From Patescibacteria group bacterium (GTDB lineage: Bacteria > Patescibacteriota > Patescibacteriia > Magasanikbacterales > JBBTQS01): DNA of 64,000 nucleotides. Shown here piece by piece: positions 5,835 to 57,935 of the stretch. The stretch is taken from positions 256,741-320,740 of the forward strand of contig JBBTQS010000001.1 in the NCBI GenBank assembly GCA_038065555.1, in the 5' to 3' direction. Position numbers and translations under genes: made by a program. Each line of letters begins with the position of its first letter. Position 1 is the first letter of the stretch. A model generated the notes under the pieces. It saw nothing but the letters and a program-made list of their open reading frames with translations. It searched no databases and was not told where the DNA came from.

Positions 5835-5908
5835 TCCGGGATCGTCTAATGGTAGGACTCATGCCTCTGGAGCATGCTATCTTGGTTCGAATCCAGGTCC
5901 CGGAGCCA
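5835..5908 (+). tRNA. tRNA-Gln (anticodon CUG)
   Basis: 74-nt cloverleaf: acceptor TCCGGGA/TCCCGGA, D-arm GTCT..GGAC, anticodon stem CATGC/GCATG with loop CTCTGGA (anticodon CTG), T-arm CTTGG-TTCGAAT-CCAGG, discriminator G and encoded CCA. Confidence 0.8.
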
Positions 5909-9057: not shown

Positions 9058-9069
9058 ATAGGGTCTGTT

Positions 9070-27523: not shown

Positions 27524-27536
27524 TATTATTGGTCGG

Positions 27537-27545
27537 AGTATAGCA
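27537..27545 (-). promoter_or_regulatory. extended -10 promoter TGcTATACT
   Basis: Minus-strand GTGCTATACT 13 nt upstream of the ATG of surface protein A (near-leaderless). Confidence 0.4.
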
Positions 27546-27549
27546 CACT

Positions 27550-32966: not shown

Positions 32967-32976
32967 ACCGGCAAAA

Positions 32977-35196: not shown

Positions 35197-37073
35197 AGTA
35201 TCGGAAAACGTGTTCCAAGAGCCTCACCATCGCGCTTCACTTCTTCAGCTTTTTCTGGCTGATCAGCAACACGATACGCAAGATACAAATACAGATACGT
35301 CTCGCGAACACCTGGAGCATCAGCACGCACTGCCTCAAGACGTGTGATAGCATCCGCAACACGATTTGTACCAATCAAGAACTCACTCTCCGCATACGCG
35401 GGATACGGATGACGAGGTGCCAACGCCTGCGCTTGTGCAAATGTTCGCTGTGCCAAATCTATCCAATCATTCCCATTACTCTGCGCTTGTTGCGCATAGA
35501 ACTGTGCGAGGAGATATGTTCGATAGAACCGAGTTCCGTCCTGCGTACACCGCGGTGCAGCTCGCTCCAGATCACGCGCCGTGCGCACACGAATATCAGC
35601 AGCTATACGATCACTCCCCGCAACTGCCACCCACGTTTGCATCGCCTTCTCCCACAACACACACGATGCAGGCACAGCATCATCTGCACTGCGCGTGACC
35701 TCTTCCATCCACGGGAACCAGCGCCCTGCGGCACGCGCATCCTCCGCACGAGTGTACGACGCAAATGCGCTCATCTGCGCCACAACACCATACAAACTCC
35801 ACACAACCAACACTCCTGCAACGCCAATCACCGCACGGTGTCGAACATTCGCCACAGGCAATACCTTGCGTACTCGTGGCACCGCGATCACACTTCCCAC
35901 AATGATCCAAAAAAACGCTGCGACAATCGGTTGCTCCGGTGTGAACAAAAGATACATCCCATACGCACCCACCATTCCAAATAACGCTGGCGACACACGC
36001 CATGCAATCAACAACACCATAGCAAACAACGCAATCCACACAACAAGTCCAACAATACCCATCTCCACAGCAACCATCAATACTGCGTTATGCGCGTCAT
36101 CGTTGAACGCCTCACTTCCTGCATACACCAGACTCTCAGGATTGAACCGTGCAGCAAACACTTCAGGATACGCGCCCCGTCCCCACCCAAACCATGGTCG
36201 ATCCTGAATCCCCTCCCACGCACCACGCCACTGCAACAATCGCGTCTGCGATGTCACTGCCGACGGAGCAATCTGCAATGCTCGTGGCACACCCCAGGAG
36301 GCTGGAACAAATTGCAGCGCAACAAAGAGCAACACAATGGCACCAACACCACCCCCGATACGCAGTGCCCGAACGCGCTCCATATGCGCAACCATCCACA
36401 AACTCGCCATGACTATTCCTACAATCAATCCTAGCAATCCAGCACGACTATCCGTTGCAACAAGCGCACTCACTTGCACCAACGCTGCAGCAATCCACCA
36501 TCCACGAACAGCCGCATGGGCACGTACATACGCTATACCCGTTGCCCCCAATGCAACGAGCAAAAATCCAGCAAGAAATGAAGCATTTCCAAAACTTGAA
36601 ATTACACTTCCAGTCGATCCAATCCACACCCATCCAGGGAATACATTTCCCAACCAACCCAGTACTGCCACAACAACCCCCATTCCAGCAATCACACGCA
36701 CCAATCGATCGCGCCACACCTGCGTACACAATGATACCGCCAACAATGACCCACCAACTGCATGCACCCAAATCCACCATCCATTTGCACGTAACAGCGA
36801 TCCCCATCCGACCATTTCTCCACCCCGCGTCGCAATACCAAGTAACACCAGATACCCCAACACAATCCACCACAAATACTTGCTCATCCGCGCAGAACCG
36901 AGGTCAGCGTCAACATGAACACCTCGGCGCATCTGCGTAATTACAACCCAAAGAAATCCCAAATCCAAAAGCCCCATCATTGCCAACACCTTTGGTGTCA
37001 AATGCGCCTCAGGCAACGATGGCGCCACCAACAATGGCACACTTACCGCAAGTACAATAAGAAAAATACCCAT
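35193..37073 (-). CDS. O-antigen ligase (Wzy_C)-TPR fusion membrane protein (paralog 3)
   Basis: Same architecture; DRPWFGWGRGAY motif; 4-nt overlap with paralog 2. Confidence 0.65.
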   Translation of the reverse strand: MGIFLIVLAVSVPLLVAPSLPEAHLTPKVLAMMGLLDLGFLWVVITQMRRGVHVDADLGSARMSKYLWWIVLGYLVLLGIATRGGEMVGWGSLLRANGWWIWVHAVGGSLLAVSLCTQVWRDRLVRVIAGMGVVVAVLGWLGNVFPGWVWIGSTGSVISSFGNASFLAGFLLVALGATGIAYVRAHAAVRGWWIAAALVQVSALVATDSRAGLLGLIVGIVMASLWMVAHMERVRALRIGGGVGAIVLLFVALQFVPASWGVPRALQIAPSAVTSQTRLLQWRGAWEGIQDRPWFGWGRGAYPEVFAARFNPESLVYAGSEAFNDDAHNAVLMVAVEMGIVGLVVWIALFAMVLLIAWRVSPALFGMVGAYGMYLLFTPEQPIVAAFFWIIVGSVIAVPRVRKVLPVANVRHRAVIGVAGVLVVWSLYGVVAQMSAFASYTRAEDARAAGRWFPWMEEVTRSADDAVPASCVLWEKAMQTWVAVAGSDRIAADIRVRTARDLERAAPRCTQDGTRFYRTYLLAQFYAQQAQSNGNDWIDLAQRTFAQAQALAPRHPYPAYAESEFLIGTNRVADAITRLEAVRADAPGVRETYLYLYLAYRVADQPEKAEEVKRDGEALGTRFPIL

Positions 37074-37215: not shown

Positions 37216-40200
37216 TTAGTAGGTAAGCGTCTTGCCAGAGAATGGCAAGCCACCGAGACCGGAAGCTGTTGGCTTGAGGTCGTAGATAGCTGCGGTGTAA
37301 CCGTCAGTCCAAGTAATACCGCTCACAGCTGTCGAGCCACCGGAGGTACCTCCAACAGCGAGACCGATCGTGAGAGTATTGTTCGAAGCTGCGTCATCCG
37401 TGTCCATCGTGACGATAACCGTCTTGCTGGAACCAGATGGGACTTCCAAATCGGTGAAGGAAGCTTCAGCGATGTTGGTGTCATCCATCGAGCTGCCCAA
37501 GTCGCCAGACGAGAGCGTACTTACGTACGAAGTCGAAGCGAGGAGGTTACCCGAAGAGATGCTGTCCTTGTAGATCTTGATTTCACGAGCAGCGTGAGCA
37601 GCAGCTGCGGAGATCGAGGTGTCAACCTTGAGGTTGAGCAACTTGATCGTAGCGGACTGGTTGTTCACGTTTGCTGGGTTAGTGAAGACCCACTTAGCAA
37701 CTGTCTTGTCGTCACCCTTCGAAGTAGCGCCTGATGGTGCGTCCGAAGCGTGAGCGATGCTCAAGTTAGCCTTGAGAGGGTGCTTTGCCGTAGCAACAAT
37801 GCGCATGCTGTCGCCGGTCAAACCAGTGAAGGTTGTGATCGAAGCGCCAGATTCTGCACCGCGTGCAACGATAGAAGCGGAGTTGCTGCTGTCATAGCCG
37901 TACAAGAGACCTGCGAAGAACGTAGAGCTCGAGAAGCTATCTGGCGAACCAGTGATGTCAGCAACAAGGCGAAGCGTCTTGCTCGAGTTCTTTGGAACTA
38001 CGAGGTTAAGACCAGTGAACGTAGCGTACGCGGTCGAGGTTGCATATACAGCCGTCGAAGTCGCGCTTGCTGTTGCAAGGCTTGATACTGCGGAACCAAC
38101 CATTGTGTCACCGTCCATAAGGCGGAGGTTGCCAACAACACCAGTGGTGCTGGTAGCGAACAACGTCATGATGGATGGGGTGAGCTCGCTGATTGTCACG
38201 CCTTCTTCCTTACCTGCAGAGAACTTGAAGCGTCCAAGTTCAACGTCGGTGGAACCCATCGTTACGTAGTGCTCAGCTGTAGAGTCTGAAGCAAGAGCAA
38301 CGGTGAGAGAGCCAGACGATGCAACGTAAACGTTCTGGAGACCTGCGGACAAGGTAGCGGTACCACTCTGAGACGTCTCAAGTGTCTGGTAGGACACAGA
38401 AGATGGGTAGAGAATACCGTTCGTGTCTGCATTGATGTTTGCGCTAGAACCACCGGTCACGTCAGCAAGTACATCAACTACGTACGTCTCACCCTTTGCG
38501 AGCACGATAGGTGTCGTGAGGGTGTAGTCGTATGTGTCGGATGCGCCTGTTGTCAACGTGCCCTTAACGCCCGCGATGTCAGCACCATTGTGCTGGAGGC
38601 GGAGGTTGGAGAAGACTGCAGAGAGACCACCAGTTACATCAGCCTTTACGGTGATGTTGGTAATCTTTGCACCTTCGCCAGATCCTGCCTTTACCACGAA
38701 CGAGCTGATGCGTGCACTCTTGGTGCTCGATACAGCAGTTGGGTTCACAGAGCTACCATCAGCAACCGTCAAGTTCTCAGACAAAGTCGGAACTGACGAT
38801 GCGAAAGTAAGGCTGTAAGCCGTAGCAGCAGCAGTGCTGATCGACGTAAGAGAGGTCTTAGCCTGAGCGTTAGCAGAGCCAGCGCGGACTACAACCTGTA
38901 CTGTGTCGCCAGCCACAACCGAAGTATCGGTGGTGTCAGCAGTAACTACGAGCTTGCCAGTCGTACCTGGGGTCACAACAAAGTTGTTGGAGAACGTGTA
39001 GTCTGCGTCCAAGCTGGTGTTGTTACCAGAGGTCGAAGAAGCTACAGCTGTACCAACCTGTACACCGTTAAGGAAAAGCTTAACGTTCTTGTACGCGTTG
39101 TTGGAGGATCCTGCGAGGTAGAGAGACATGCTGTCAACCTTCACAGCTTCACCAGCTGCAACGAGGTCAAACGTTGCGAGGTTGACGCCAGTAGCGCCAG
39201 TCGCAATGTTGTTCTTCGTTGATTCGGTAGCTGGAGTGATTGTGAGCGTACCTGTGTTGATCGTCGTCTGTGCGGTGGTCTGAATGGAGAACGCCGTCGT
39301 ATTGAGGGTTACCACTGGAGCGTACACACCGTACTGAAGATCCCATGCAGTTACATCATTTTCTTCCTGAACCGAGAACTGGAAGTTACGGTTGGTACCG
39401 CCAACTACTGTTCCGTAGAGGTCCAAGAACTTCGACTGACCAGCAGTGATCTTGAGACCACCGTCTGCAGAGTTGGTGAAGTCGAACGTGAGCTTGTTGT
39501 TTCCAAGATCAGCGTACGTTGCACCAAACTGCGTGCCAGCAACAGTCAACTTGATGTTCTTGATGTCGGAAGCGCTTACCGAACCAATCTGTGTGAAGGT
39601 AATACGCTTCACAAGGAGGTTCTGATCTGTAGCAAGGATCTTGAACTTAGCAAGTTCCTTGTCTGCAGATGCGTTTGCATCCATGGTTGTAGCAGATACT
39701 GGGGACGATGTAGCAACCTGGAGATAGCCGAGGTCAGTGACCGTAGCAATCGTCATGTTGTTTCCAACAGCCGAACCAGATGCTGCACCGGACTTCACTT
39801 CAGCAGCGTTCACGGTAAAACCAACGGTTGTACCAGTGCTTGCTGACTTGTTGATGTTTGCCTTCACCCAAATGGTCTTGGTCTGGCCAGCTGGAACGGT
39901 GAAAATACCGTTCGAGTTGCTCCAGGTTACCTTGCCGCTCGAGATAGAAGAGGACTCTGCAAGAATAGTCTCGCCGTCCATGAGCATTACTTCATCAACA
40001 TCGCTGTCCTTCGAGATACCTGTGCGAGTTGCAGTAACCATAGTTACTACAGCCTCTGCACCCACTGCGGAGAAGCGTACAGCCGTCATTGGGGCCATGC
40101 GCTGTCCGAGCGTAGCGCTAGCTGTTGTGTCAACCACAACGGAACCAGCTGCTGGTGTAGCGGAGTCGAGCGAAATTGTCAACGTCGTTGGAGCTGTTGG

Positions 40201-40914
40201 CGAGACTGGCGTACCGCCTGTCTGTGCCGTGTCTGCAACGTCGCTAGCGCCAAGAGCTGAACCAGCGGTCAAGCCAGCGAGAGATCCAGTTACAACGAAC
40301 TTCGTGTTGAAGTGGTTGCTTGTGAATGCTGCATCGCTCACCATGCGCTTCATGTTGCCCTCAACGTAGTACTTAGAAGCTCCGTCCATCACAACTGCAC
40401 CTGTTGGGTACACGCCTGCTGTAGCAAGCTCTGCACCAGTGGTGTAGTTCGTGAAGAATGCGTCTGAGACGTCGATTACCGACTTGCCCCAGTTAGCACC
40501 CCAAAGAGACTTAGCAACTTCTTCGGTCTTTACCCAGCGCAATACGCCCTTAGGCTCTACTGCGTATACCTTTGGATCCGTCGTGATTTTCACGAGGAAG
40601 GTACCAGGGCGCACTACAATGTTTCCTGCAAGTGGTACTGCTGCCAATTCGTCAGCCGATACCACGGTTACGCCGTTGAAGTTTGGATACCAAGCTTCAA
40701 AGGTCTTTTGTGACGGGAAGGTGTAGCGGCCGTTATTCATGTAGTAGTACACCGTCGAGAGATCCGCACGCTTGATCAACATTCCGTTGGTCAAGGTTGC
40801 TGCTGAAGCGGTCAATGGGGCTACCATTGCTGCAAATCCAACAGCCCAGAGGATCGTCGCGGTCGCTACTACATACGTAGCGGACTGCTTCACCATTCTC
40901 ACTGCATCTGTCAT
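37216..40914 (-). CDS. giant cell-surface protein B (S-layer-like, tandem Ig-like/beta-sandwich repeats) with N-terminal about 115-aa shared domain
   Basis: Signal peptide ...ILWAVGFAAMVAPLTASAA; N-terminal RPGTFLVKITTDPKVYAV...DVSDAFFTNYT domain homologous to the C-terminus of protein A; about 1000 aa of S/T/A/G/V-rich repeats. Confidence 0.7.
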   Translation of the reverse strand: MTDAVRMVKQSATYVVATATILWAVGFAAMVAPLTASAATLTNGMLIKRADLSTVYYYMNNGRYTFPSQKTFEAWYPNFNGVTVVSADELAAVPLAGNIVVRPGTFLVKITTDPKVYAVEPKGVLRWVKTEEVAKSLWGANWGKSVIDVSDAFFTNYTTGAELATAGVYPTGAVVMDGASKYYVEGNMKRMVSDAAFTSNHFNTKFVVTGSLAGLTAGSALGASDVADTAQTGGTPVSPTAPTTLTISLDSATPAAGSVVVDTTASATLGQRMAPMTAVRFSAVGAEAVVTMVTATRTGISKDSDVDEVMLMDGETILAESSSISSGKVTWSNSNGIFTVPAGQTKTIWVKANINKSASTGTTVGFTVNAAEVKSGAASGSAVGNNMTIATVTDLGYLQVATSSPVSATTMDANASADKELAKFKILATDQNLLVKRITFTQIGSVSASDIKNIKLTVAGTQFGATYADLGNNKLTFDFTNSADGGLKITAGQSKFLDLYGTVVGGTNRNFQFSVQEENDVTAWDLQYGVYAPVVTLNTTAFSIQTTAQTTINTGTLTITPATESTKNNIATGATGVNLATFDLVAAGEAVKVDSMSLYLAGSSNNAYKNVKLFLNGVQVGTAVASSTSGNNTSLDADYTFSNNFVVTPGTTGKLVVTADTTDTSVVAGDTVQVVVRAGSANAQAKTSLTSISTAAATAYSLTFASSVPTLSENLTVADGSSVNPTAVSSTKSARISSFVVKAGSGEGAKITNITVKADVTGGLSAVFSNLRLQHNGADIAGVKGTLTTGASDTYDYTLTTPIVLAKGETYVVDVLADVTGGSSANINADTNGILYPSSVSYQTLETSQSGTATLSAGLQNVYVASSGSLTVALASDSTAEHYVTMGSTDVELGRFKFSAGKEEGVTISELTPSIMTLFATSTTGVVGNLRLMDGDTMVGSAVSSLATASATSTAVYATSTAYATFTGLNLVVPKNSSKTLRLVADITGSPDSFSSSTFFAGLLYGYDSSNSASIVARGAESGASITTFTGLTGDSMRIVATAKHPLKANLSIAHASDAPSGATSKGDDKTVAKWVFTNPANVNNQSATIKLLNLKVDTSISAAAAHAAREIKIYKDSISSGNLLASTSYVSTLSSGDLGSSMDDTNIAEASFTDLEVPSGSSKTVIVTMDTDDAASNNTLTIGLAVGGTSGGSTAVSGITWTDGYTAAIYDLKPTASGLGGLPFSGKTLTY

Positions 40915-45505: not shown

Positions 45506-46596
45506 ACGCGCTCACGTGCAAGTAATCGCAGATACAGCGTCTCATACTCTCGCACCATATCCTGAATCCGAAAATGCAACAACGCATAGGTACGCGCTGC
45601 ATCAGCATGTCGTCGCAAATGCACATGGTCTTCGCATGCAAATTCAATAGCAGCGGCAAGCTCGTTCACATCAGTACTATCAACAAGCGTACCCGTCTCA
45701 CCATCAATCACAATCTCTGCGATACCGCCCACACGACTTGCAATGACAGGACGCCCTGCAGTCATTGCTTCCATCACAACCAATCCCAACCCCTCCCAGC
45801 GGGAGGTCAACACAAAAACATCGTGTGTTGAGAACACTTCAGGGATATTGTCTGTCGTTCCGTAAAATTGTACTCGATCGTCGATTCCCAATGCTGCTGC
45901 CTGAGACTGCAATCGCGACAGCTCTGTCCCCGCTCCCACAATAGTCAATCGCCAATCACTACGCACGAGCGCGCACGCATTCAACAACAGATCAAATCCT
46001 TTTTGATGCTCGAGGCGACCAATACTCAAGAGACGCAGCGGCGTGCGCAAGAGCGGAGCAGGAATCTTCGCAAATCGGTCTACGTCAATTCGGTTGAGAA
46101 TCACACTGAGCTTCGATGGCGATACACCTTCTACACGTGTTGCATATTCAGCAACTGATGCAGAGACCGCGATAATGCGATCAGTGATACGCGAGAGTAC
46201 ACCCTTGATCCAATGCTTCCACTGCGGCTCGTCATACCACTGATTGTGCTCAGTAGAGAGAATGAGTGGCACACCAGCGAACCACGCAGCAACCTTGCCA
46301 TACGCGTCTGCACCAAAGAGATGTGTGTGCACAATCGCTGGTTTTTCTTTGCGCAACCACTTCGTGAGCCGCCACAAATACGCCAGACTCCAACGACCAT
46401 GTGCTGTCATAGGAACCACACGTACTCCATGAGATTGAATAACATCAACAAGTGGCCCAAGAGCAATCGTTGCAACCACAGTTAATTCAAATTTCGCGTG
46501 GTCATGATACCGCGCGATTTCTGCCAGCAGTCGTTCGGCTCCACCGAACTGCAGCGTCGGAATTAAATGAATGACTTTGATTCTCGGTACTTCCAT
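45502..46596 (-). CDS. glycosyltransferase family 4
   Basis: IKVIHLIPTLQFGGAERLL... and EGLGLVVMEAMTAGRPVIAS motifs; 4-nt overlap with the upstream GT gene. Confidence 0.7.
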   Translation of the reverse strand: MEVPRIKVIHLIPTLQFGGAERLLAEIARYHDHAKFELTVVATIALGPLVDVIQSHGVRVVPMTAHGRWSLAYLWRLTKWLRKEKPAIVHTHLFGADAYGKVAAWFAGVPLILSTEHNQWYDEPQWKHWIKGVLSRITDRIIAVSASVAEYATRVEGVSPSKLSVILNRIDVDRFAKIPAPLLRTPLRLLSIGRLEHQKGFDLLLNACALVRSDWRLTIVGAGTELSRLQSQAAALGIDDRVQFYGTTDNIPEVFSTHDVFVLTSRWEGLGLVVMEAMTAGRPVIASRVGGIAEIVIDGETGTLVDSTDVNELAAAIEFACEDHVHLRRHADAARTYALLHFRIQDMVREYETLYLRLLARERV

Positions 46597-47972
46597 ACCA
46601 CAACATGAGCGCCCACGAGCAACAACCCAATCGGCAACCACATTTTGCCGGAATAATACGACGTATTAAAAATCTGATACACAATCGCCCCCGATGCTGC
46701 GACAAAGAGCGCCACCACCAGCGGATACTCCGGAAGTGACCGTGCACGCATCACTCCCCGCCATCCATACAACATAAATATCGTGAGCATCAACACCCAG
46801 GTAATGAGTCCCAACAGTCCACTCTCAGCAATAATCTTCTGCAACATCCCGTGCGCATCGAGTGGATCACCATACTCGATCACATACACATGCGTATCTG
46901 CAACAATGGACAAGAATGTTCCCGGTCCCTGACCCAACAGCGGTCGATCGCGGAAATACTCCCAAGAAATTCGCGCCAAATCAATACGCGTGTCATTGCT
47001 CCCCGCCACCAGCGAGCTCGTACTAATCGCTATCATGTAGACGAGTATTGGCAACAAGAGCGCAAGCGCCAACCCGACCATCTGCCGGCGAAATCGCACG
47101 ACAGGAAGTCGACCAATAGAATCGCGCATGAGCCATAACGCAAGCAGGCATTCAACGAACAATACAATCCACGCACTGCGCGCGAACGTAAGTAACGTTG
47201 CAACCAGAATCAATGCATTCCCCACGAACAACCAACGACGCACATGCGGACGATCTTCCTGATGCAACAAATACGCACCAATAGGCAGAATAACCACGAG
47301 CACTTCAGCCAACAAATTATGGTTAGTTCCAAACGGCGTCCAACCAGCAAGTGCAAAAGGCGTCACACGAGTCCACCCACCTTGGGCCGCTCCTAGTATC
47401 AACGAAATCATCCCCATCACCGCGCCCCCAACTCCGACACCGTACATCCACCGCAGCACACGATCCAACGCCTCACGCGTTCGTACAATAGTGAACGGAA
47501 GGAGCACCCACATCAGATACATGAAGAGCATCGGTCGCAGTACGTATTTGACCCCAATCCCCAGCGCATCTTCACGCGTCGCAAATACCACCGACAACAA
47601 TTGTACAAACAAAAATAACCAGAACACCGCACTATGCGGCGCGAGTCGTGGCCGCTCCTCACGCCCAGGAATTCCCCACAGTGCGAGCAATCGCACGCTA
47701 TACGAAATCAACAACACTAATGCAAAGAAATCTGCAGCCGGTGCATCAATCGTATTGAGTATAGGAATATGTCGCGACCAATTGTACACACCGAAATTAA
47801 TCACCCACCCACTCATCGGCATGAGCGCCGCAAGCAAACACATCCCTGCGACAGGAAAAAAAGCCAGCGCAGTAATCACACCAGCGCCTACTAGGACAAT
47901 AAGAGGTAACCAACCTGGTATGATCGTTGCAAGTATTGCTGCCCCAACCAGTGCCACAAAAAAAACAAACAT
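46563..47972 (-). CDS. O-antigen ligase (Wzy_C) family membrane protein (no TPR tail)
   Basis: Polytopic membrane protein with the LTFARSAWIVLFVECLLALWL Wzy_C core; start uncertain. Confidence 0.6.
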   Translation of the reverse strand: MFVFFVALVGAAILATIIPGWLPLIVLVGAGVITALAFFPVAGMCLLAALMPMSGWVINFGVYNWSRHIPILNTIDAPAADFFALVLLISYSVRLLALWGIPGREERPRLAPHSAVFWLFLFVQLLSVVFATREDALGIGVKYVLRPMLFMYLMWVLLPFTIVRTREALDRVLRWMYGVGVGGAVMGMISLILGAAQGGWTRVTPFALAGWTPFGTNHNLLAEVLVVILPIGAYLLHQEDRPHVRRWLFVGNALILVATLLTFARSAWIVLFVECLLALWLMRDSIGRLPVVRFRRQMVGLALALLLPILVYMIAISTSSLVAGSNDTRIDLARISWEYFRDRPLLGQGPGTFLSIVADTHVYVIEYGDPLDAHGMLQKIIAESGLLGLITWVLMLTIFMLYGWRGVMRARSLPEYPLVVALFVAASGAIVYQIFNTSYYSGKMWLPIGLLLVGAHVVVWKYRESKSFI

Positions 47973-48071
47973 CGTACGACGTTCGACGAATGATTGCGTG
48001 ACGGAACGAGAGATGCGCAGCGCGTGCATATGCGTGCAGTATATCACAAACTAAACACCTCGAACCCAAAA

Positions 48072-48139: not shown

Positions 48140-48373
48140 TTAGTCGCCACCGCCTCCGTCGCCGCCAGAATCACCGCTGCCCCAGTCACCGTCTCCGCTG
48201 TCACCGCCACCAGATCCGCCGAACAGATTTCCGACGAAATCCAGGAAGCCGGAGAAGCCACCACGATCGTAGCGCGAAGGCGTGCGTACGAGGTAGGCCA
48301 GCACGATGATCACGAACAGAACCACGATAGCGATGACTACGATGCAGCCCTGAGTACCCAAGAACTCACACAT
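48140..48373 (-). CDS. small single-pass membrane protein with Gly/Asp-rich C-terminal tail (about 77 aa)
   Basis: MCEFLGTQGCIVVIAIVVLFVIIVLAYLV TM helix, then GGFSGFLDFVGNLFGGSGGGDSGDGDWGSGDSGGDGGGGD; AAGGAGG RBS 7 nt before the ATG; consensus TATAAT -10 upstream. Confidence 0.5.
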   Translation of the reverse strand: MCEFLGTQGCIVVIAIVVLFVIIVLAYLVRTPSRYDRGGFSGFLDFVGNLFGGSGGGDSGDGDWGSGDSGGDGGGGD

Positions 48374-48420: not shown

Positions 48421-48585
48421 ATATCGCGAGGTTCAAGATGTCTATAAATCGAAAAGCCGGAGAGCGTCATGGAGATGTTGAATCTGCATGCGCTCGCCGG
48501 CTTTCGGTCGGTTGCCTCATTGCTGAGGCAAGTTGTTCGCGCTATCGAGTGCGCGAGTATTCAATGATCGTCTTCCGAACCTCGA

Positions 48586-50268
48586 TTAGTTCGGTGGGGT
48601 GTAGGTGCACAGGTAGTTGAGCCCCTGCGAACCATTGGTCACTTCGACACAGTCGACCGAGCCCGTACCCGTGTTGGCCATGAGAACGTCCACGGATTGG
48701 ATACCGGGATTCTCCCACGGCGTCGGGAAGTAGAACTTCTGGAACGACGAGGCGGCGACCTTGTACTCGATGAAAAGGATGAAGTAGGTGATGTCGTTCC
48801 CGAAGACCGGGATCTCGAACTCCTTCCATCCTTCGATCAACAGCGGCGTCGTGCTGTTGATCCCCCAGTCCGTGTAGGTGCGATCTCCGCTACCGTACGG
48901 ATCCTCGAGGTCCTCGTAGTTCTCGCAGCTGAACTCGTTGATCGCCCACCCAGCCGCCTTCTTGGCCGGGTCGGTCTCGAGCTGCCCACTTGCGCAGGTA
49001 TAGCCGTTGACCTCGAGCGAGTAGATGTTCGCTGATGACTTCTTCGTGACCTGAACCGCGATTTCGACGAGGCTGAGCGGATTGGCCGGCGGCTCGGGAT
49101 CAGTTGCACACTGACCACCGATACTGCAGGCGCAAACCGGCACGTTGCTGCACTGACCGCTCACACAGGAGTCGGCCGTGCATGCCTTGTCGTCGTTGCA
49201 GTTCTTGGCGACTCCGACGCACGCGCCTCCGACGATGATCTCGTCGTTGACCGTACAGCTATCGAAATCGTTGCAGGCGTCGCCGACTTGCGGTCCGACC
49301 ACCACGCACTGCCCCGTTGACGCGGAACACTCTTTGCCGTCGGCGCACTGGACCGGCTCGTTGACACAGGTGCCGCTGACGCAACCGTCTTGCGTGCACT
49401 TGCTGTTATCGAGACACTCCTTCTGCACGCCGTGGCACTCGCCGTTCTGCTTGATCCGATCCGTGACCGTGCAGGGGTCATTGTCGTTACACGACTCGCC
49501 CGGCTGCGGCTCGACGACCGGCTCCTTGCAGACGCCAGACTCGCAGACGTCACCGTCCACGCACTTGGGCGAGGTCGCGCAACCGCTGTCACCCTCGCAG
49601 GTGTCGTTGGTACACGCATTGCCGTCGTCGCACACCTTTGCCACCGCGACGCACTTCTTGCCGTCGCAGGTGTTGTCAGTGCAGAGATCGCCGTCGTCGC
49701 ACAAGGCATTCTTCGCCGTGTGCGAACAGTTGCCGTCGACAATCGCGTCGACGGTGCACGGAACCTCGTCGTCGCAGTCCGGGACCACCACCACTTCGAC
49801 GCATTTGTCGGCGTCGTCGTCGCAGTAGTTACCGTCACCGCAGTCGCGCTCGAAGTGGAGGCAGTCGCCCGTCTCCGCTTCGCACTCGTCCGTGGTGCAG
49901 AACTTGCCGTCGGCGCACGTGCGGACTTCTCCGCCGTTGCACTCGAATTCACCGTCGGCATTCGCATGCCAGCAGGTGCCCTCGGTGCACGGCTTGCCGT
50001 CATCGCACGGGTCGCCTTCCTTCGGGCCGGACGAATCCGGCTCGACGGTGACGTCCTTGGGCGGGACGTAGGTGTCGGCGCTGTCGGTCGCGTCCGAACC
50101 ATCCGTCGTGTCGGGCGGGACGTACGTATCCGGCTGCCCGGCGTCGTACGGCTCCTGCCACGTGTCGGACGGCGGCGGGTTGTTGTACCCCACGTCGTAA
50201 CCATACGGAACAGCAGCCTGACACGCACCCATGAACATCGCCGCCAGTACCACCACCAACTTCTTCAT
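48586..50268 (-). CDS. secreted lipoprotein with tandem cysteine-rich CxDGxxCTxDxC repeats and a C-terminal beta-rich domain
   Basis: MKKLVVVLAAMFMGAC lipobox; Pro/Asp-rich linker; about 8 repeats such as CDDGKPCTEGTC, CDDGDLCTDNTC, CDDGNACTNDTC; the gene is markedly GC-richer than flanking DNA. Confidence 0.6.
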   Translation of the reverse strand: MKKLVVVLAAMFMGACQAAVPYGYDVGYNNPPPSDTWQEPYDAGQPDTYVPPDTTDGSDATDSADTYVPPKDVTVEPDSSGPKEGDPCDDGKPCTEGTCWHANADGEFECNGGEVRTCADGKFCTTDECEAETGDCLHFERDCGDGNYCDDDADKCVEVVVVPDCDDEVPCTVDAIVDGNCSHTAKNALCDDGDLCTDNTCDGKKCVAVAKVCDDGNACTNDTCEGDSGCATSPKCVDGDVCESGVCKEPVVEPQPGESCNDNDPCTVTDRIKQNGECHGVQKECLDNSKCTQDGCVSGTCVNEPVQCADGKECSASTGQCVVVGPQVGDACNDFDSCTVNDEIIVGGACVGVAKNCNDDKACTADSCVSGQCSNVPVCACSIGGQCATDPEPPANPLSLVEIAVQVTKKSSANIYSLEVNGYTCASGQLETDPAKKAAGWAINEFSCENYEDLEDPYGSGDRTYTDWGINSTTPLLIEGWKEFEIPVFGNDITYFILFIEYKVAASSFQKFYFPTPWENPGIQSVDVLMANTGTGSVDCVEVTNGSQGLNYLCTYTPPN

Positions 50269-50321
50269 ATCTCTTCTCCCGGGCCACTTGGACCCTTGCT
50301 CAAGAAATCGCTTTCGAGGGC

Positions 50322-50333
50322 TGACACATGTCA
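50322..50333. promoter_or_regulatory. perfect 12-bp palindrome TGACACATGTCA in the 5' UTR of the Cys-rich lipoprotein gene
   Basis: Inverted repeat TGACA-CA-TGTCA about 55 nt upstream of the start codon; candidate operator. Confidence 0.3.
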
Positions 50334-50486
50334 CCCCTCACCATCGCATTCAGTTTTCAAACGTCGATTTGGTAAGTCGCACATTGCTGTGACGTCTTCC
50401 AATCGTTCGGCTCAAGGCAACACACGAAGGAGGGTACGTGCGTTACCGAACCGAACGATTGCAAAACACCAGTAAATGAACAAGAA

Positions 50487-50515
50487 AGAATACCATATTT
50501 AGCTTAATTTGTCAA
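50487..50515 (-). promoter_or_regulatory. sigma70-type promoter CCTTGACAAAT-17-TATTCT
   Basis: Minus-strand TTGACA/TATTCT with 17-nt spacer, about 210 nt upstream of the lipoprotein start (long 5' UTR containing a 62-nt hairpin at about 50400-50461). Confidence 0.45.
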
Positions 50516-50526
50516 GGGGTAAAAGT

Positions 50527-50572
50527 GGCTAAAATAGCAAGAACCCGCAAAATCGTTTGACTTTGCGGGTTC
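50527..50572 (-). terminator. intrinsic terminator GAACCCGCAAA-N10-TTTGCGGGTTC
   Basis: Perfect 11-bp stem followed on the minus strand by UUGCUAUUUU; lies between the OmpA-like gene end and the next promoter. Confidence 0.5.
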
Positions 50573-50658
50573 AGGTTTTCCCTTTCAGGATCAATTGTGG
50601 GCATTCACTCGCACGTGAAAGGGGTCGTGCGGGGTGGTTTAATGTCGCCCTAGTGGAT

Positions 50659-52092
50659 CTAGAAGCGGACGCCGAGCAAAGCCTGGCCGTCGACGGCTGC
50701 CTCGGCAGAGGTCACGCCGGGCACATCGTTGCCACCGCTGACCTCGAAGCCGATGAAGCCATTGACCGGCGCGCGCTGGTCCTCGAGGAAGTACGCCTTG
50801 TACCCGAATCCGGCTCCGAAGAACACGAAGTCCGAGTACCCCGGCTTGTGCGTCGAGTACCAGGTGAACCGACCGTTGATGGAGAACATGTGCCGACCAA
50901 CCCGACCGAAGACGCCGTAGCGAACTCCGCCGTTCCAGCCTGCATCTGCCTCCTTGTCAGCTTCGGGGAAGCTGTTGGTCGATCCAACTGCCAGGGAGCC
51001 ACCGATGTAGGCGCCCCAGTTCTCGTGCCACTGGAACAGCATGTCCAAGGACAGCTGCCCCATGACGAGTGTCTCGTTGACGTCGAGATCGAGGTCGCCC
51101 ATCACGCGATGGACCGACACTCCAGCCGCAAGTTCGATCGCCGCGTAGGAGAACGAACGAGTGCTGGTTGAACCGACGGTGCCGTTCTTGATGATGCCAT
51201 CGACGTCCTTGCGAAGGCCGTCGATTTCGCGCCATTGGCTGACGTTGTCGTCCTCGAGATCGCCGACGCGCTTGTTGAGCGTCTGGAACTGGGATTCGAA
51301 GTAGCCGACGACGGATTCCGTGTTGGGACCGAGATCCCACACGACAACCGCACGCAGACCCTTGCGTTGATTCCCAACTCCAGGCAGCGCACGCGCCGTC
51401 TGGAAGCCGCCATTGGCCAGCAACTGATTGAATCGCGAGACCCGGAGGTCTGCGAGCATCCGGTTGCAGCTGCTGTGCGTCTTGCCCTGCGTCTGGCACC
51501 GGATCTCATCCGCGAACCCGACCAGACCGATGTCGTGGCCGGACTTCGCGACGCTCAACGCCTTGTCCACGCACTGCTGCGTCGACGCGTTGGCCTCGTA
51601 CTTCCCGACTTCGTACATCGCCACGCAGACGATGTGGTTGTCGAGTCGCCCGAGGACGCTGTGCGCCGCTCGCTGTGCTTGGACGATATGCGGGCGAGCG
51701 CGAACCGTCATCGCGGGACCGGCCTCGGCTGCACGTGTTGCCACGCTCAGCTTCGACTTGAGGTCTGCGACGACGTTGAGCAACTCGGCGTTGTTCGTCT
51801 TGAACGCCGCGAGCTGCTCATTGACCGCTGCGAGGAGCGCCTTGATGCGCTCGTTCTCTTCGCGGGCGGCGGCGAGGTCGGCGAAACCGTTCCCGTTGGC
51901 CTGTGCGGCCTCGAGAACACGGCAACGCTCATTCGCGGCCTCGAGCAGGGCCTTGACCCGCTCGAGCTCGTTCAAGTCCGACTCCAAGGTGGGGTCGAGC
52001 ATGACGATGGTGTCGTCGGCGACAGCGGCGAACGGGATGAACAGAGCCGCGACGATCGCGGCGAGAACGAGGTTGCAGAGGAACTTCTTCAT
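50659..52092 (-). CDS. OmpA-like peptidoglycan-binding domain protein with N-terminal coiled-coil and C-terminal beta-barrel-like region ending in Phe
   Basis: Signal peptide; coiled-coil (LNELERVKALLEAANERC...); OmpA_C-like core (IGLVGFADE...NRMLADLRVSRFNQLLANGG...LRAVVVW); alternating-hydrophobic C-terminal half ending ...ALLGVRF. Confidence 0.55.
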   Translation of the reverse strand: MKKFLCNLVLAAIVAALFIPFAAVADDTIVMLDPTLESDLNELERVKALLEAANERCRVLEAAQANGNGFADLAAAREENERIKALLAAVNEQLAAFKTNNAELLNVVADLKSKLSVATRAAEAGPAMTVRARPHIVQAQRAAHSVLGRLDNHIVCVAMYEVGKYEANASTQQCVDKALSVAKSGHDIGLVGFADEIRCQTQGKTHSSCNRMLADLRVSRFNQLLANGGFQTARALPGVGNQRKGLRAVVVWDLGPNTESVVGYFESQFQTLNKRVGDLEDDNVSQWREIDGLRKDVDGIIKNGTVGSTSTRSFSYAAIELAAGVSVHRVMGDLDLDVNETLVMGQLSLDMLFQWHENWGAYIGGSLAVGSTNSFPEADKEADAGWNGGVRYGVFGRVGRHMFSINGRFTWYSTHKPGYSDFVFFGAGFGYKAYFLEDQRAPVNGFIGFEVSGGNDVPGVTSAEAAVDGQALLGVRF

Positions 52093-52279
52093 GACTAACT
52101 CCGGCCCCCTTTTCGAATAAAGGTAGGAGGCAAACCGTTTGAGACACTAACGTAAATTGTCGATGTGCGGGTTTCCCCCGCGTCGCCCTTTCGGGTGGGT
52201 ACTGGGGAAAACCATGTGTACCGCGATATTCCCACAGAATACTCTGGAAATATCGCGAAACACTTGAATTGAACGTCGA

Positions 52280-52308
52280 ATCGTATCACAATCTACAGAT
52301 TTTGTCAA
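52280..52308 (-). promoter_or_regulatory. sigma70-type promoter CTTGACAAAA-17-TACGAT
   Basis: Minus-strand -35/-10 with 17-nt spacer, about 185 nt upstream of the OmpA-like gene start; the leader contains the CGCGATATTCC...GGAAATATCGCG hairpin (52223-52257). Confidence 0.45.
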
Positions 52309-52421
52309 GTAGTCATTCTAGCTGAAATAACTCGAGGCTCGCGATTTCTTCCCGTAGGGTTGAAATCGCGAGCCTCGTCGTTGACGCCATCGTCGCTGTT
52401 GGCGGCGATGACATCAGAGCG

Positions 52422-53180
52422 TTAGCGGCATTCGAGCTGACACTTGGTGTCTGCCCCACAGCGCGCAATGCACTCTTGAGCCCATCCAGACGCGGGCGAA
52501 CCCTCGTCAGACGGCACGCTGGCGACCGCGGGCTTGCTGGGCTTGGTGACCCGAGCAACGCCGCGGCGCGCACCCTTGGGGATGGACTTGCCCGGGCTCG
52601 CCGCGCGCTCCACAGCCGGTGAGGCGGTGGAAACGGCGAGCGTCGTGCTCAGGCGGCGCAGGACCTCCTTCACGTAGGACAGCTTGGTATCGTCATTGCT
52701 GACGAGCTTGCGCTGCTCTTCGCGAAGGGCCTTCTCGAGACGTCGGATCTCGAGATGCGCCACATCGACGTCCTTGGGATCGAGCTGGGCCGAGTTGCCA
52801 GCGTCGTCCTCGAGCGCGATGGCCACCCGGTAGACCTGGTCGACATCCCAGTCGTCGTTGACGGCGTTCTTGAGGTCGTACCCAGGAAAGGCGTCAGTCG
52901 GCGGGGTCGCGGCGGGGTTGGCCGGGATCTCGGTCGCCTTGCGGACGACCTCGACCAGGCGCGGATCGCGAGCGAGCTGGAGCAGGGCCTCGCGGGCCTG
53001 CTCGAGCAACTCCTCCTTGGCCTCCTCCTTGGGGAGCTGGCGACGGAGCTTGGCGCACTCCGCGGCCGTGGTGCACGTCGGATTGACCGTCGGCGGCGCG
53101 CAGTACGCGACGCCGGTGTAGAAACACGCGATCGCTGCGATCGCGAGGACGGCCATCTTGGAAACGAACTTGTTTCGCAT
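52422..53180 (-). CDS. hypothetical secreted coiled-coil protein with terminal Cys pairs
   Basis: Signal peptide MRNKFVSKMAVLAIAAIACF; N-terminal CTTAAEC and C-terminal CIARCGADTKCQLEC Cys clusters; Ala/Glu/Arg-rich helices; GC-rich. Confidence 0.45.
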   Translation of the reverse strand: MRNKFVSKMAVLAIAAIACFYTGVAYCAPPTVNPTCTTAAECAKLRRQLPKEEAKEELLEQAREALLQLARDPRLVEVVRKATEIPANPAATPPTDAFPGYDLKNAVNDDWDVDQVYRVAIALEDDAGNSAQLDPKDVDVAHLEIRRLEKALREEQRKLVSNDDTKLSYVKEVLRRLSTTLAVSTASPAVERAASPGKSIPKGARRGVARVTKPSKPAVASVPSDEGSPASGWAQECIARCGADTKCQLECR

Positions 53181-57541: not shown

Positions 57542-57935
57542 GGGGATGCCCGGCTTCGATGGGAGGTTCATGGACGTGTCGTAGCATACCGAGCGGACGG
57601 ACGCTCGTTAATCCCCGTCAAACAGTCTACGTGCAAACGTTTACTCGCGCGTGAAGAATTCGATCGCTTCGGCGTTCGCAATGCCTTCATTCGCTCCGGT
57701 CGCAGCCTAATAACTCCGACCCATCACCCTCAGGACACCTCTACTGAGATCGTGGTGCAATACCGAGGTGTAGCATAGGAACGTCGCACCGCGTCCTTCG
57801 CGAAATCAACTGGTGCGCCGTGAGTCAGGGCTTCGCACGCATGCTGCCTGTCTCCCGTATTTCATGCGTGCTTCGTATGGACACTCGATACGCACATCCT
57901 TCCAGACGCGGGTTCGACTCCCGCCATCTCCACCA
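57542..57935 (+). ncRNA. ssrA: tmRNA (ssrA)
   Basis: 5' GGGGATGCCCGGCTTCGATGGG and 3' GACGCGGGTTCGACTCCCGCCATCTCCACCA tRNA-like ends; internal tag reading frame ending ...GCAATGCCTTCATTCGCTCCGGTCGCAGCC TAA TAA (…AMPSFAPVAA**). Confidence 0.85.

What the first reader, a model, noticed from the sequence alone, without database searches (positions are those of the whole stretch)
48586..50268. Lipoprotein with about 8 CxDGxxCTxDxC cysteine-rich repeats and an unassigned C-terminal beta-rich domain
The repeats are regularly spaced with 6 Cys per unit, e.g. DPCDDGKPCTEGTCW, CDDGDLCTDNTCDGKKC, CDDGNACTNDTCEGDSGC. They resemble the disulfide-rich repeat families of Myxococcota/Bdellovibrionota (DUF4215/TIGR02232-like), which are rare outside those lineages. 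An N-terminal Pro/Asp-rich linker follows the lipobox. The last about 200 residues (…SLVEIAVQVTKK…GWKEFEIPVFGNDITYFILFIEYKV…) form a separate beta-rich domain with no motif I can assign.
Basis: partly seen in the sequence, partly recalled or inferred. Interest (0 to 1): 0.55.

Follow-up and report, generated by a model that had tools for sequence, protein, structure and literature searches.

The report
Cysteine-repeat stalk lipoprotein of a groundwater ultra-small bacterium
This gene encodes a membrane-anchored surface protein with a rigid, disulfide-stapled stalk of 12 known-type cysteine repeats and an unknown tip domain; the protein type is fairly ordinary, but it sits in a three-gene envelope cassette with very unusual codon usage and a conserved structured mRNA leader.

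Summary
Window 48586-50268 (minus strand) encodes a 560-aa protein identical to a hypothetical protein of a Patescibacteria (CPR) groundwater MAG.

**Architecture**
- Lipobox signal peptide (Cys16).
- 70-aa Pro/Asp-rich tether.
- 173-aa C-terminal domain with no detectable relative.

**Family.** The repeats are the Pfam Dicty_CTDC (PF00526) type, not DUF4215/TIGR02232. They are not confined to Myxococcota. Other CPR genomes carry such lipoproteins at the same Wzy/GT4 locus.

**Structure.** AlphaFold models the repeat region confidently as a beta-hairpin rod. Its only solved analogue is the cysteine-rich arm of the Entamoeba Gal/GalNAc lectin heavy chain.

**Best reading.** It is an abundant, lipid-anchored stalk-and-head surface protein. 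The function is inferred.

**More unusual context**
- This gene and two neighbouring secreted-protein genes have GC3 0.82-0.84, against about 0.5 in the genome, while their spacers have host-like GC.
- They show low dS and high dN.
- Each has its own TTGACA -35 hexamer and a structured leader.
- The target's promoter and leader hairpin are 80-90% conserved between species whose coding sequences share only 34% amino-acid identity.

The parts
50487..50515 (-). Promoter-like site of the target gene: TTGACA, 17 nt, TATTCT with TG upstream of the second hexamer.
   Evidence: Consensus scan, 10 of 12 matches. The stretch is nearly invariant in window, L009 and L007.
50269..50482 (-). 5' leader of about 212 nt. 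Its first ~105 nt (50378-50482) form an extended hairpin of about 41 bp. The loop UACCCUCCUUCG (50425-50438) is invariant and resembles an anti-Shine-Dalgarno sequence.
   Evidence: MFE -90 kcal/mol against -62.9 +/- 4.6 for shuffles, z -5.95. RNAalifold on 3 sequences gives 51 pairs, 6 of them with compensatory double changes in L007. The stretch is 80-90% identical between species whose synonymous sites are saturated. No Rfam family matches. It is single-copy, found only upstream of this gene in every locus.
50221..50268 (-). Signal peptide with lipobox (MKKLVVVLAAMFMGA|C16).
   Evidence: Sequence. The lipobox Cys is conserved in P0002 (LTVGC) and in the L009 orthologue (FLVGC), although the signal peptide is otherwise only 7/18 identical.
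50008..50220 (-). Pro/Asp-rich tether, residues 17-87, with DTYVPP occurring twice.
   Evidence: Composition. This is the most variable part between close relatives: 58% identity with a 12-residue indel. AF2 pLDDT is below 50.
49108..50007 (-). Cys-rich rod, residues 88-387: 12 tandem Dicty_CTDC-type units (C-x-[DN]-x3-C-[TS]-x2-4-C...) plus a 3-Cys cap.
   Evidence: Unit table and shuffle test. Pfam PF00526 matches in 7 stretches. AF2 pLDDT is 74-96 with paired beta-strands in each unit. Foldseek finds the E. histolytica lectin heavy chain, 9gjc_H, E 4.4e-5.
48586..49107 (-). C-terminal orphan domain ('head'), residues 388-560, with 4 Cys (C425, C448, C540, C554). It follows a PEPPANP hinge.
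   Evidence: No relative was found in 1.84 billion representative proteins, apart from itself and a short repeated-motif match. No Pfam, PDB-sequence or word-index hit. It is 96% identical in L009 but about 26% identical to the P0002 C-terminus, with C425 and C448 kept. AF2 pLDDT is below 50.
48446..48501 (-). Terminator-like hairpin (GCCGGCGAGCG...CGCTCTCCGGC) followed by TTTTCGATTT, downstream of the stop codon.
   Evidence: Read by eye. The 3' arm and T-run are conserved in L007. The consensus scan did not report it because the loop is long.
50659..52092 (-). Neighbour B: a 477-aa secreted protein with coiled-coil segments and a conserved C-terminal beta-rich region ending in ...LLGVRF. It has its own promoter (52308..52280) and terminator (50572..50541).
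   Evidence: GC3 is 0.82. The only word-index homologue is P0122 at 94%. There is a weak OmpA-family match in the L001 orthologue only (E 5.9e-4, below cut-off). The leader folds with z -4.9.
52422..53180 (-). Neighbour A: a 252-aa secreted protein, partly coiled-coil, with Cys clusters at both ends.
   Evidence: GC3 is 0.84. Identity to the L001/L007 orthologue is 53-59%. The leader folds with z -3.8.
48140..48373 (-). Small 77-aa membrane protein with a Gly/Asp/Ser-rich tail. It is present in window and L009 and absent from L007.
   Evidence: GC3 is 0.65-0.67.

Best explanation
The gene encodes an abundant, lipid-anchored 'stalk-and-head' protein of the cell surface of a groundwater Patescibacteria bacterium.

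**Shown**
- A Sec/lipobox signal peptide with acceptor Cys16.
- A disordered Pro/Asp tether of about 70 aa.
- A rod of about 300 aa made of 12 tandem, roughly 24-aa beta-hairpin modules of the Dicty_CTDC class. Its 45 conserved Cys are placed so that disulfides staple the modules.
- A short Pro-rich hinge and a 173-aa orphan domain, conserved at short evolutionary range.

**Inferred**
- After lipidation the protein stays in the outer leaflet of the cytoplasmic membrane.
- The tether crosses the wall.
- The rigid rod holds the head beyond the glycan layer made by the adjacent Wzy/Wzz/GT4 genes.
- The head binds an external partner, either a host-cell surface or an envelope polymer.

**Expression**
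- The gene is its own transcription unit. It has a near-consensus promoter, a long leader that begins with a 41-bp hairpin, and a probable terminator.
- Like the two neighbouring secreted-protein genes, it uses almost only G/C-ending codons.
- Strong promoter, long structured 5' UTR and biased codon usage are the triad described for very highly expressed S-layer genes.
- I therefore read A, B and C as major envelope proteins of this clade, evolving fast in sequence as surface proteins do.
For: **Architecture**
- Sequence and domain layout.
- Lipobox conserved in orthologues.
- Dicty_CTDC assignment.

**Rod structure**
- The rod is modelled with pLDDT 74-96 as serial beta-hairpins.
- The only significant PDB fold matches are the E. 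histolytica Gal/GalNAc lectin heavy chain. Its cysteine-rich region is described as an elongated arm rigidified by interdomain disulfides (PMC12948311).

**Spacer role of the repeats**
- Homologues fuse the same repeats to many different extracellular domains: M23 peptidase, amidase_2, C-type lectin, fibrinogen_C, FGE-sulfatase, CAP, cupredoxin, dockerin (Pfam column). That fits a spacer or display role.

**Envelope context**
- The neighbours are Wzy, Wzz-like and three GT4 genes.
- The same gene order, Dicty_CTDC gene(s) then Wzy then GT4, is found in a CPR genome whose Wzy is only 38% identical.

**Head is functional**
- 96% identity to L009, against 58% for the tether.

**Expression signature**
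- Promoter.
- Leader hairpin with z -5.95 and 6 compensatory pairs.
- GC3 0.83 against about 0.5, with TTC, TAC, ATC and AAG at 0.94-0.97.
- Host-like GC in the island spacers.
- dS 0.20-0.27 against 0.47-0.83 in flanking genes, and dN/dS 0.18-0.57 against 0.01-0.06.
- The S-layer gene triad is taken from PMC3666127. S-layers are reported in some members of the phylum (PMC13293708).
Against: - No expression, localisation or binding data exist. Abundance is inferred only from sequence signatures.
- The codon shift raises G/C endings in every codon family and reverses host preferences (GTC 0.61 against 0.11; CCA 0.02 against 0.46). That pattern looks more like a compositional or foreign signature than classical translational selection. 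No ribosomal-protein or EF-Tu gene is in the window for comparison.
- The window protein itself scores below Pfam's gathering cut-off for Dicty_CTDC.
- The Cys count in the rod is odd (45), so at least one Cys is unpaired or pairs outside the rod.
- The head could not be modelled (pLDDT below 50), so 'ligand-binding head' is an analogy and not a result.
- Presence of Lgt/Lsp and of an extracytoplasmic disulfide-forming system in this genome was not checked.
Confidence: 0.55

Rival explanations
1. The three-gene cassette, including this lipoprotein, is foreign DNA taken from a high-GC diderm such as a Myxococcota-like bacterium. The Cys-repeat protein is then a myxobacterial-type lipoprotein that happens to sit in a CPR genome.
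For: - GC3 is 0.82-0.84 in A, B and C, against 0.37-0.62 in all other genes of the window.
- The codon preferences are the opposite of the host's.
- Dicty_CTDC proteins are numerous in Myxococcota and Deltaproteobacteria.
- B ends in an OMP-like ...GVRF and has a weak OmpA-like match in one orthologue.
Against: - Spacers inside the island have host-like GC of 0.48-0.52.
- The promoter and leader of the target are orthologous and 80-90% identical in a sister species whose flanking genes are saturated at third positions. Both species nevertheless keep GC3 at 0.82-0.90. An old foreign insert should have ameliorated.
- A deeply divergent CPR genome has Dicty_CTDC genes at the same locus with GC3 0.70-0.85, against 0.29-0.53 for their neighbours.
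- No donor-like relative of B or of the head was found in 5.8 or 1.84 billion proteins.
- There is no integrase, phage or defence signal.
Confidence: 0.2
2. The protein is a structural component of a surface layer or envelope scaffold. It would assemble with A and B, and the C-terminal domain would mediate self-assembly or wall attachment rather than binding a foreign ligand.
For: - Three adjacent, separately transcribed secreted proteins share the same codon and leader signature.
- The cassette is syntenic in two species.
- The S-layer-gene-like triad is present, and S-layers are reported in the phylum.
- Sequence divergence between species is very fast, as is typical of S-layer proteins.
Against: - No SLH, CWB or other known anchoring or lattice domain was found.
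- A lipid anchor plus a long rod is more typical of displayed adhesins or enzymes than of lattice subunits.
- Homologues carry enzymatic or lectin heads.
- No interaction evidence exists.
Confidence: 0.2
3. The head is an undetected enzyme or toxin, for example a wall hydrolase used on a host cell, displayed on the stalk.
For: Several homologues with the same repeats end in M23 peptidase or amidase_2 domains (P0034, P0047, P0057-P0059).
Against: - The head matches no enzyme family by Pfam, NCBIfam, PDB sequence or exhaustive HMMER search.
- No conserved His/Asp/Cys catalytic constellation is shared with P0002 in the alignment.
Confidence: 0.05

Closest known systems
[quoted passage not shown]
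   Same: - The tandem unit is about 24 aa with C-x-D-x3-C-T-x-D-x-C spacing.
- It is the only Pfam family matched.
- The orthologue P0002 scores 83 bits, and 117 of the 120 listed homologues carry the domain.
- The proteins are extracellular and are often lipoproteins with a variable extra domain.
   Different: - The window protein itself is below the gathering score (19.1 and 24.9 bits against 27).
- Half of its units have lost one Cys.
- The head domain is an orphan.
- The family was listed in 2021 among repeat families without a known structure (PMC8078820).
- From my own knowledge, not tested here: in Dictyostelium such repeats occur in extracellular matrix and spore-coat proteins.
   Same: Both are short, Asp-rich, disulfide-type repeats in secreted proteins and lipoproteins of environmental bacteria.
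   Different: No match was reported in Pfam or NCBIfam at permissive thresholds. None of the 120 listed homologues is annotated with PF13948.
[quoted passage not shown]
   Same: - It is the only significant solved-structure match to the modelled rod (E 4.4e-5 to 4e-3).
- It is built of small serial beta-hairpin modules of about 20 residues.
- It forms an elongated arm rigidified by disulfides on a surface adhesin (PMC12948311).
   Different: - Sequence identity is 14-17% and TM-scores are low because both are long flexible rods. There is no sequence-level match to PDB.
- It is a eukaryotic type I membrane protein in which sugar binding resides in a separate light chain.
- This is a structural analogy, not shown homology.
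S-layer protein genes of Gram-positive bacteria (for example Lactobacillus slpA), as an expression model
   Same: An efficient promoter, a long 5' UTR with a stabilising secondary structure, and biased codon usage (PMC3666127) are all seen here. Sequence divergence between relatives is also fast.
   Different: - There is no sequence or domain similarity to any S-layer protein and no SLH or cell-wall-binding domain.
- The lipid anchor and Cys-rich rod are not S-layer features.
- Lattice formation is untested.

Membership tests
Dicty_CTDC repeat (Pfam PF00526) | Score at or above Pfam's gathering cut-off (27 bits) against the family HMM. | tested here: not met
   The full-length protein scores 19.1 bits. 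The repeat region alone scores 24.9 bits in 7 stretches. The orthologue P0002 scores 83 bits in 9 stretches.
Dicty_CTDC repeat (Pfam PF00526) | Tandem units of about 24 aa with the C-x5-C-x4-C-x4-10-C / CxDxxxCTxDxC pattern. | tested here: met
   There are 12 units of 22-30 aa. Six have the full 4-Cys pattern and six have 3 Cys. 13 motifs are observed against 1.3 +/- 1.1 in shuffles.
Dicty_CTDC repeat (Pfam PF00526) | Significant sequence homology to proteins that are bona fide members. | tested here: met
   238 proteins match at E<=1e-3. 117 of the 120 listed carry PF00526, and the Cys columns are invariant in the 40-sequence alignment.
Myxococcus cysteine-rich repeat TIGR02232 / DUF4215 (PF13948) | A match to the family HMM. 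| tested here: not met
   No hit at E<=1 in NCBIfam. No hit at E<=1 for the full length or E<=10 for the repeat region in Pfam.
Bacterial lipoprotein (PROSITE PS51257-type lipobox) | Positively charged N-region, hydrophobic core, and [LIVMFWSTAG](2)-[LIVMFYSTAGCQ]-[AGS]-C with the Cys at position 15-35. | tested here: met
   MKK...FMGA-C16 was read against the pattern by eye. The Cys is conserved as VGC in P0002 and in L009.
Bacterial lipoprotein (PROSITE PS51257-type lipobox) | The genome encodes Lgt and signal peptidase II, and the protein is actually acylated. | not testable with these tools
   Only the 64-kb window is available and neither gene was seen in it. Acylation needs experiment.
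S-layer-type highly expressed envelope gene | Strong promoter, long structured 5' UTR and biased codon usage. | tested here: met
   The triad is taken from PMC3666127.
S-layer-type highly expressed envelope gene | A known S-layer anchoring or lattice domain (for example SLH), or a demonstrated 2D lattice. | tested here: not met
   No such Pfam domain was found in A, B or C. Lattice formation is not testable here.
Diversity-generating retroelement target protein | A template/variable repeat pair at the C-terminus and a nearby reverse transcriptase. | tested here: not met
   No repeat copy of the 3' end of the gene occurs within 40000-64000. No RT was found among the neighbouring genes. The head is 96% identical between close relatives.
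OmpA-family peptidoglycan-associated protein (neighbour B) | A match to PF00691 above the cut-off. | tested here: not met
   Window B has no hit. The L001 orthologue scores 20.6 bits against a cut-off of 27.2, E 5.9e-4.

The most novel reading that the evidence does not exclude
**Proposed reading**
- The A-B-C cassette is the clade-specific major surface and attachment apparatus of these ultra-small bacteria.
- Its extreme G/C-ending codon usage is not a relic of transfer. It is actively maintained in place, either by selection on translation or mRNA stability or by a recombination-linked bias.
- It has been maintained across lineages old enough to be saturated at synonymous sites.
- Meanwhile the proteins diversify rapidly.
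- The conserved 5' hairpin with its invariant anti-SD-like loop would be a new cis-acting RNA element controlling the stalk lipoprotein.

**Recurrence elsewhere**
- The same GC3 elevation in Dicty_CTDC genes at the Wzy/GT4 locus of a distant CPR genome (L014) suggests a recurring phenomenon.
Probability: 0.2. Interest if true: 0.65.

Novelty: new member of a known kind. Interest (0 to 1): 0.4.

Why it matters
- Taken alone, the protein adds one more divergent member to a large, uncharacterised class of bacterial Cys-repeat surface proteins. It also corrects the family assignment.
- It matters more as a candidate surface or contact protein of a Patescibacteria lineage, whose envelope and host-attachment molecules are largely unknown.
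- Its locus offers a clean test case. Three envelope genes keep GC3 above 0.8 in a genome with GC3 near 0.5, with host-like spacers, low dS, high dN and a conserved structured leader.
- Deciding whether this reflects expression-linked selection or recurrent transfer would inform how atypical-composition genes in reduced genomes should be interpreted. Such genes are routinely called horizontally transferred.

Tried and rejected
**Family assignment**
- DUF4215/TIGR02232: no hits.

**C-terminal domain by sequence**
- Word-index search: nothing.
- Exhaustive phmmer over 1.84 billion representatives found only the protein itself plus P0121. P0121 matches a 29-residue motif (VxVTxGxxGxNYxxTYTP) ten times and is uninformative.
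- Pfam at E<=10: none.
- Three-sequence profile against PDB sequences: only noise at E>1.
- hhalign against the C-terminal domains of two L014 paralogues: no relation.

**C-terminal domain by structure**
- AF2 on the domain with a 2-sequence alignment gave pLDDT 37.7, which is unusable.
- In the full-length model the domain is also below 50, so no fold search on it is meaningful.
- BFVD gave nothing significant.

**Mobile-element, phage and defence origins**
- DGR target idea: rejected. There is no TR/VR repeat and the head is conserved between close relatives.
- Phage or defence origin: no convincing PHROG or PADLOC hit. The only match is a coiled-coil match of B to LmuB at E 0.002.

**Other checks**
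- Assembly chimera: rejected, because independent assemblies share the junctions.
- Neighbour B: no PDB sequence relative and no Pfam domain.
- Search for an 'empty site' relative: scans of genome and metagenome contigs returned only the same two species.
- Rfam on the island: no family.
Full report
**What is there**

The finding's coordinates hold one gene on the minus strand, from ATG at 50268 to the stop at 48586, encoding 560 aa. A GGGAG ribosome-binding site sits upstream. An upstream in-frame GTG at 50334 would add 22 residues. The ATG form starts with a typical signal peptide, and that start is the one conserved in relatives.

The protein is 100% identical to NCBI 'MAG: hypothetical protein AAB384_01555 [Patescibacteria group bacterium]' on an 881-kb contig. 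The same gene with the same neighbours occurs in several independent assemblies, including ENA contigs named Hain_H41. The locus is therefore not an assembly artefact.

**Anatomy**

- Residues 1-16 form a lipoprotein signal peptide, MKKLVVVLAAMFMGA|C. The Cys is kept in the two available orthologues although the rest of the signal peptide is only 7/18 identical.
- Residues 17-87 are Pro/Asp-rich (13 Pro and 12 Asp of 70) with DTYVPP twice. This is the most variable part between close relatives (58% identity).
- Residues 88-387 hold 45 Cys. They parse into 12 units of 22-30 aa, each starting C-x-[DN]-x3-C, plus a 3-Cys cap. Six units have 4 Cys and six have 3.
- 13 C-x-[DN]-x3-C motifs are observed, against 1.3 +/- 1.1 (maximum 6) in 10,000 shuffles.
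- Residues 388-560 follow a PEPPANP hinge and contain four more Cys.

**Which repeat family**

- Pfam gives one match, Dicty_CTDC (PF00526). It scores 19.1 bits for the full length and 24.9 bits in 7 stretches for the repeat region alone. Both are below the gathering score of 27.
- NCBIfam gives nothing, so there is no TIGR02232 match. Pfam shows no DUF4215 match.
- The one full-length relative, P0002 (34% identity, 96% coverage), scores 83 bits for PF00526.
- 117 of the 120 listed homologues carry that domain.
- I file the protein as a divergent Dicty_CTDC-repeat protein and reject the DUF4215/TIGR02232 assignment.
- Named hits come from Uhrbacteria, Azambacteria, Myxococcota, Deltaproteobacteria, Binatia, Limnocylindrales, Flavobacteriales and Phycisphaerae. 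The repeats are thus not restricted to Myxococcota/Bdellovibrionota.

**Structure**

- AlphaFold2 with a 40-sequence alignment models residues 80-387 with pLDDT 74-96 as a series of two-stranded beta-hairpins. The tether and the C-terminal domain are below 50.
- The 2026 paper on that structure describes its cysteine-rich region as small modules of about 20 residues. These form an elongated arm rigidified by interdomain disulfides (PMC12948311).
- PDB has no sequence relative. In 2021 Dicty_CTDC was listed among repeat families without a known structure (PMC8078820).

**The C-terminal domain**

- It has no detectable relative. The word-index search found nothing.
- An exhaustive phmmer over 1.84 billion representatives returned only the protein itself and a short repeated-motif match.
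- Pfam at E<=10 and a profile search of PDB sequences gave nothing.
- It could not be modelled (pLDDT 37.7).
- It is nevertheless 96% identical in the close relative L009, more conserved than the rod (90%) or the tether (58%).
- It aligns at about 26% with the C-terminus of P0002, with two Cys, several aromatic residues and the terminal PN kept.
- It is a real, constrained domain of unknown fold.
- Homologues attach the same repeats to very different extracellular domains: M23 peptidase, amidase_2, C-type lectin, fibrinogen_C, FGE-sulfatase, CAP, cupredoxin and dockerin. The repeats therefore behave as a display stalk.

**Context**

- Downstream on the coding strand lie a 77-aa membrane protein, a Wzy_C protein and three GT4 glycosyltransferases.
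- Upstream lie two secreted proteins, B (477 aa; coiled coil plus a conserved C-terminal region) and A (252 aa). Beyond them are a Wzz-like protein and a PDZ protein.
- The order PDZ, Wzz, A, B, C, Wzy is kept in a sister species (L001 = L010, L007, L011) and in a close relative (L009).
- In a far more distant CPR genome labelled Azambacteria (L014), Wzy is 38% and GT4 40% identical. There, four Dicty_CTDC genes sit in the same position relative to Wzy and GT4.
- An Uhrbacteria genome has two such genes among mur genes.
- Dicty_CTDC lipoproteins are therefore a recurrent envelope-locus feature in CPR bacteria.

**The unexpected part: composition and evolution**

*Codon usage*
- A, B and C have GC3 of 0.84, 0.82 and 0.83. 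Every other gene in the window lies between 0.37 and 0.62.
- Third positions in the island are C 0.50, G 0.33, A 0.05 and T 0.11. Host genes show 0.23, 0.29, 0.21 and 0.27.
- TTC, TAC, ATC and AAG reach 0.94-0.97. Host preferences are reversed for GTC (0.61 against 0.11), GCC (0.37 against 0.08) and CCA (0.02 against 0.46).
- The spacers inside the island nevertheless have host-like GC of 0.48-0.52.

*Close relative (L009)*
- Flanking genes show dS 0.47-0.83 and dN/dS 0.01-0.06.
- A, B and C show dS 0.20-0.27 and dN/dS 0.57, 0.18 and 0.25.

*Sister species (L001/L007)*
- Flanking proteins are 82-89% identical, with third positions saturated at 48-52% identity.
- A, B and C are only 53-59%, 29% and 34% identical by BLASTP. 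They still have GC3 of 0.84-0.90.
- L014 shows the same contrast: 0.70-0.85 for the Dicty genes and 0.29-0.53 for their neighbours.

*Interpretation*
- A single old transfer should have ameliorated.
- A recent transfer does not fit the orthologous, host-like spacers.
- No donor-like relatives of B or of the head exist in the databases searched.

**Transcription signals**

- Each of A, B and C has an upstream TTGACA -35 hexamer conserved across the three genomes; the consensus scan called full promoter-like sites only for B and C, not for A.
- Each has a leader of 170-210 nt that folds much better than shuffles: z -5.95, -4.9 and -3.8.
- For the target gene, the promoter (50515..50487) and the first ~160 nt downstream are 80-90% identical between the two species. 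That is far above the ~50% identity at saturated synonymous sites.
- The leader begins with a hairpin of about 41 bp. Six of its pairs show compensatory double changes in the sister species. Its loop, UACCCUCCUUCG, is invariant.
- The element matches no Rfam family and is single-copy.
- A terminator-like hairpin follows the stop codon, and B has its own terminator. The target is therefore monocistronic.
- Efficient promoter, long stabilising 5' UTR and biased codon usage are what a review lists for S-layer genes (PMC3666127). S-layers are reported in some members of this phylum (PMC13293708).

**Mechanism I commit to (confidence about 0.55)**

The protein is an abundant lipid-anchored stalk-and-head surface protein.

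- Shown: the lipobox, the tether, the 12-module Cys rod with a confident beta-hairpin model, the constrained orphan head, the envelope-gene context and the expression-type signals.
- Inferred: acylation, disulfide formation, projection of the head beyond the wall or glycan layer, ligand binding by the head, and high expression.

**Rivals**

- Foreign cassette from a high-GC diderm (0.2).
- Structural layer component rather than adhesin (0.2).
- Displayed enzyme or toxin (0.05).

**What I could not do**

- Model the head or protein B. The structure jobs were exhausted and two fold libraries were unavailable.
- Compare codon usage with ribosomal or other highly expressed genes, because none is in the window.
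- Find a relative with an empty site.

**Verdict**

- The protein is a new, divergent member of a known repeat class with an orphan head, which is of moderate interest.
- The cassette's codon usage, substitution pattern and conserved structured leader are the more surprising features and deserve a genome-wide follow-up.

Noticed in passing
window 48586-53180 (three genes at 48586-50268, 50659-52092, 52422-53180): These three adjacent secreted-protein genes have GC3 0.82-0.84, against 0.37-0.62 for all other genes in the window. Their spacers have host-like GC of 0.48-0.52. Against a close relative they show lower dS (0.20-0.27 against 0.47-0.83) and higher dN/dS (0.18-0.57 against 0.01-0.06) than the flanking genes.
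   Followed up: partly
window 50378-50515 (minus strand); also L007 10004-10150 and L009 7410-7556: The promoter and a 41-bp 5'-leader hairpin with an invariant CCUCCU-containing loop lie upstream of the target gene. They are 80-90% identical between species whose coding sequence shares only 34% aa identity. Six pairs show compensatory changes, and no Rfam family matches.
   Followed up: partly
window 50659-52092 (minus strand): Neighbour B is a secreted coiled-coil protein. Its conserved C-terminal ~170 aa show alternating hydrophobic and aromatic strands and end in ...LLGVRF (...LGGHF in the sister species). This resembles an outer-membrane beta-barrel signature, which is odd in a Patescibacteria genome. 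A weak sub-threshold OmpA match appears in one orthologue only.
   Followed up: partly
L014 3523-13719 (NCBI GCA_016234725.1, labelled Candidatus Azambacteria): Four Dicty_CTDC genes lie next to Wzy and GT4, in the same order as in the window. Their GC3 is 0.70-0.85 against 0.29-0.53 for their neighbours. Their C-terminal domains are unrelated to the window's.
   Followed up: partly
L009 7589-9388: The public gene calls place two antisense ORFs (328 and 187 aa) where the real 548-aa orthologue of the target lies on the other strand (7607/7625-9271). High GC3 produces long spurious ORFs, and the window has the same kind (for example 49390-50475 on the plus strand, 361 aa).
   Followed up: yes
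L007 (CAZVGV010000002.1): The record is titled 'uncultured Gammaproteobacteria bacterium'. Its PDZ, Wzz and Wzy proteins are nevertheless 82-88% identical to this Patescibacteria window, and the locus is syntenic. The taxonomic label or the binning is probably wrong.
   Followed up: no
window 5953-10878 (minus strand): A full-length AcrB-type RND transporter (766 bits) and a HlyD-type membrane-fusion protein lie in a stretch of lower GC (0.45-0.46; GC3 0.37-0.41). This is a tripartite-pump-like pair in a lineage not expected to have an outer membrane, so it may have been acquired.
   Followed up: no
window 30861-37073 and 46563-48047 (minus strand): Four Wzy_C (O-antigen ligase-like) proteins occur within 17 kb. 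Three are tandem and large (626-739 aa), and one carries TPR repeats. Two very large proteins without any Pfam match (1232 aa at 37216-40914 and 1093 aa at 24317-27598) lie nearby. This is a dense surface-glycan and surface-protein region.
   Followed up: no
window 48140-48373 (minus strand): A 77-aa protein has one transmembrane helix and a Gly/Asp/Ser-rich tail. It lies between the target and Wzy, has GC3 0.65-0.67, and is present in window and L009 but absent from the sister species L007.
   Followed up: no
window 957-3464 (plus strand), 57542-57935, 5835-5908: These positions hold a type IV secretion coupling protein-like ATPase (T4SS-DNA_transf/TrwB), a tmRNA gene and a tRNA-Gln(CTG).
   Followed up: no
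P0121 (876 aa, fragment): The last 29 residues of the target (VDCVEVTNGSQGLNYLCTYTPPN) resemble a motif (VKVTDGNSGNNYSYTYTPAN) repeated ten times in an unrelated repeat protein. This is probably a common beta-hairpin motif and not evidence of homology.
   Followed up: no
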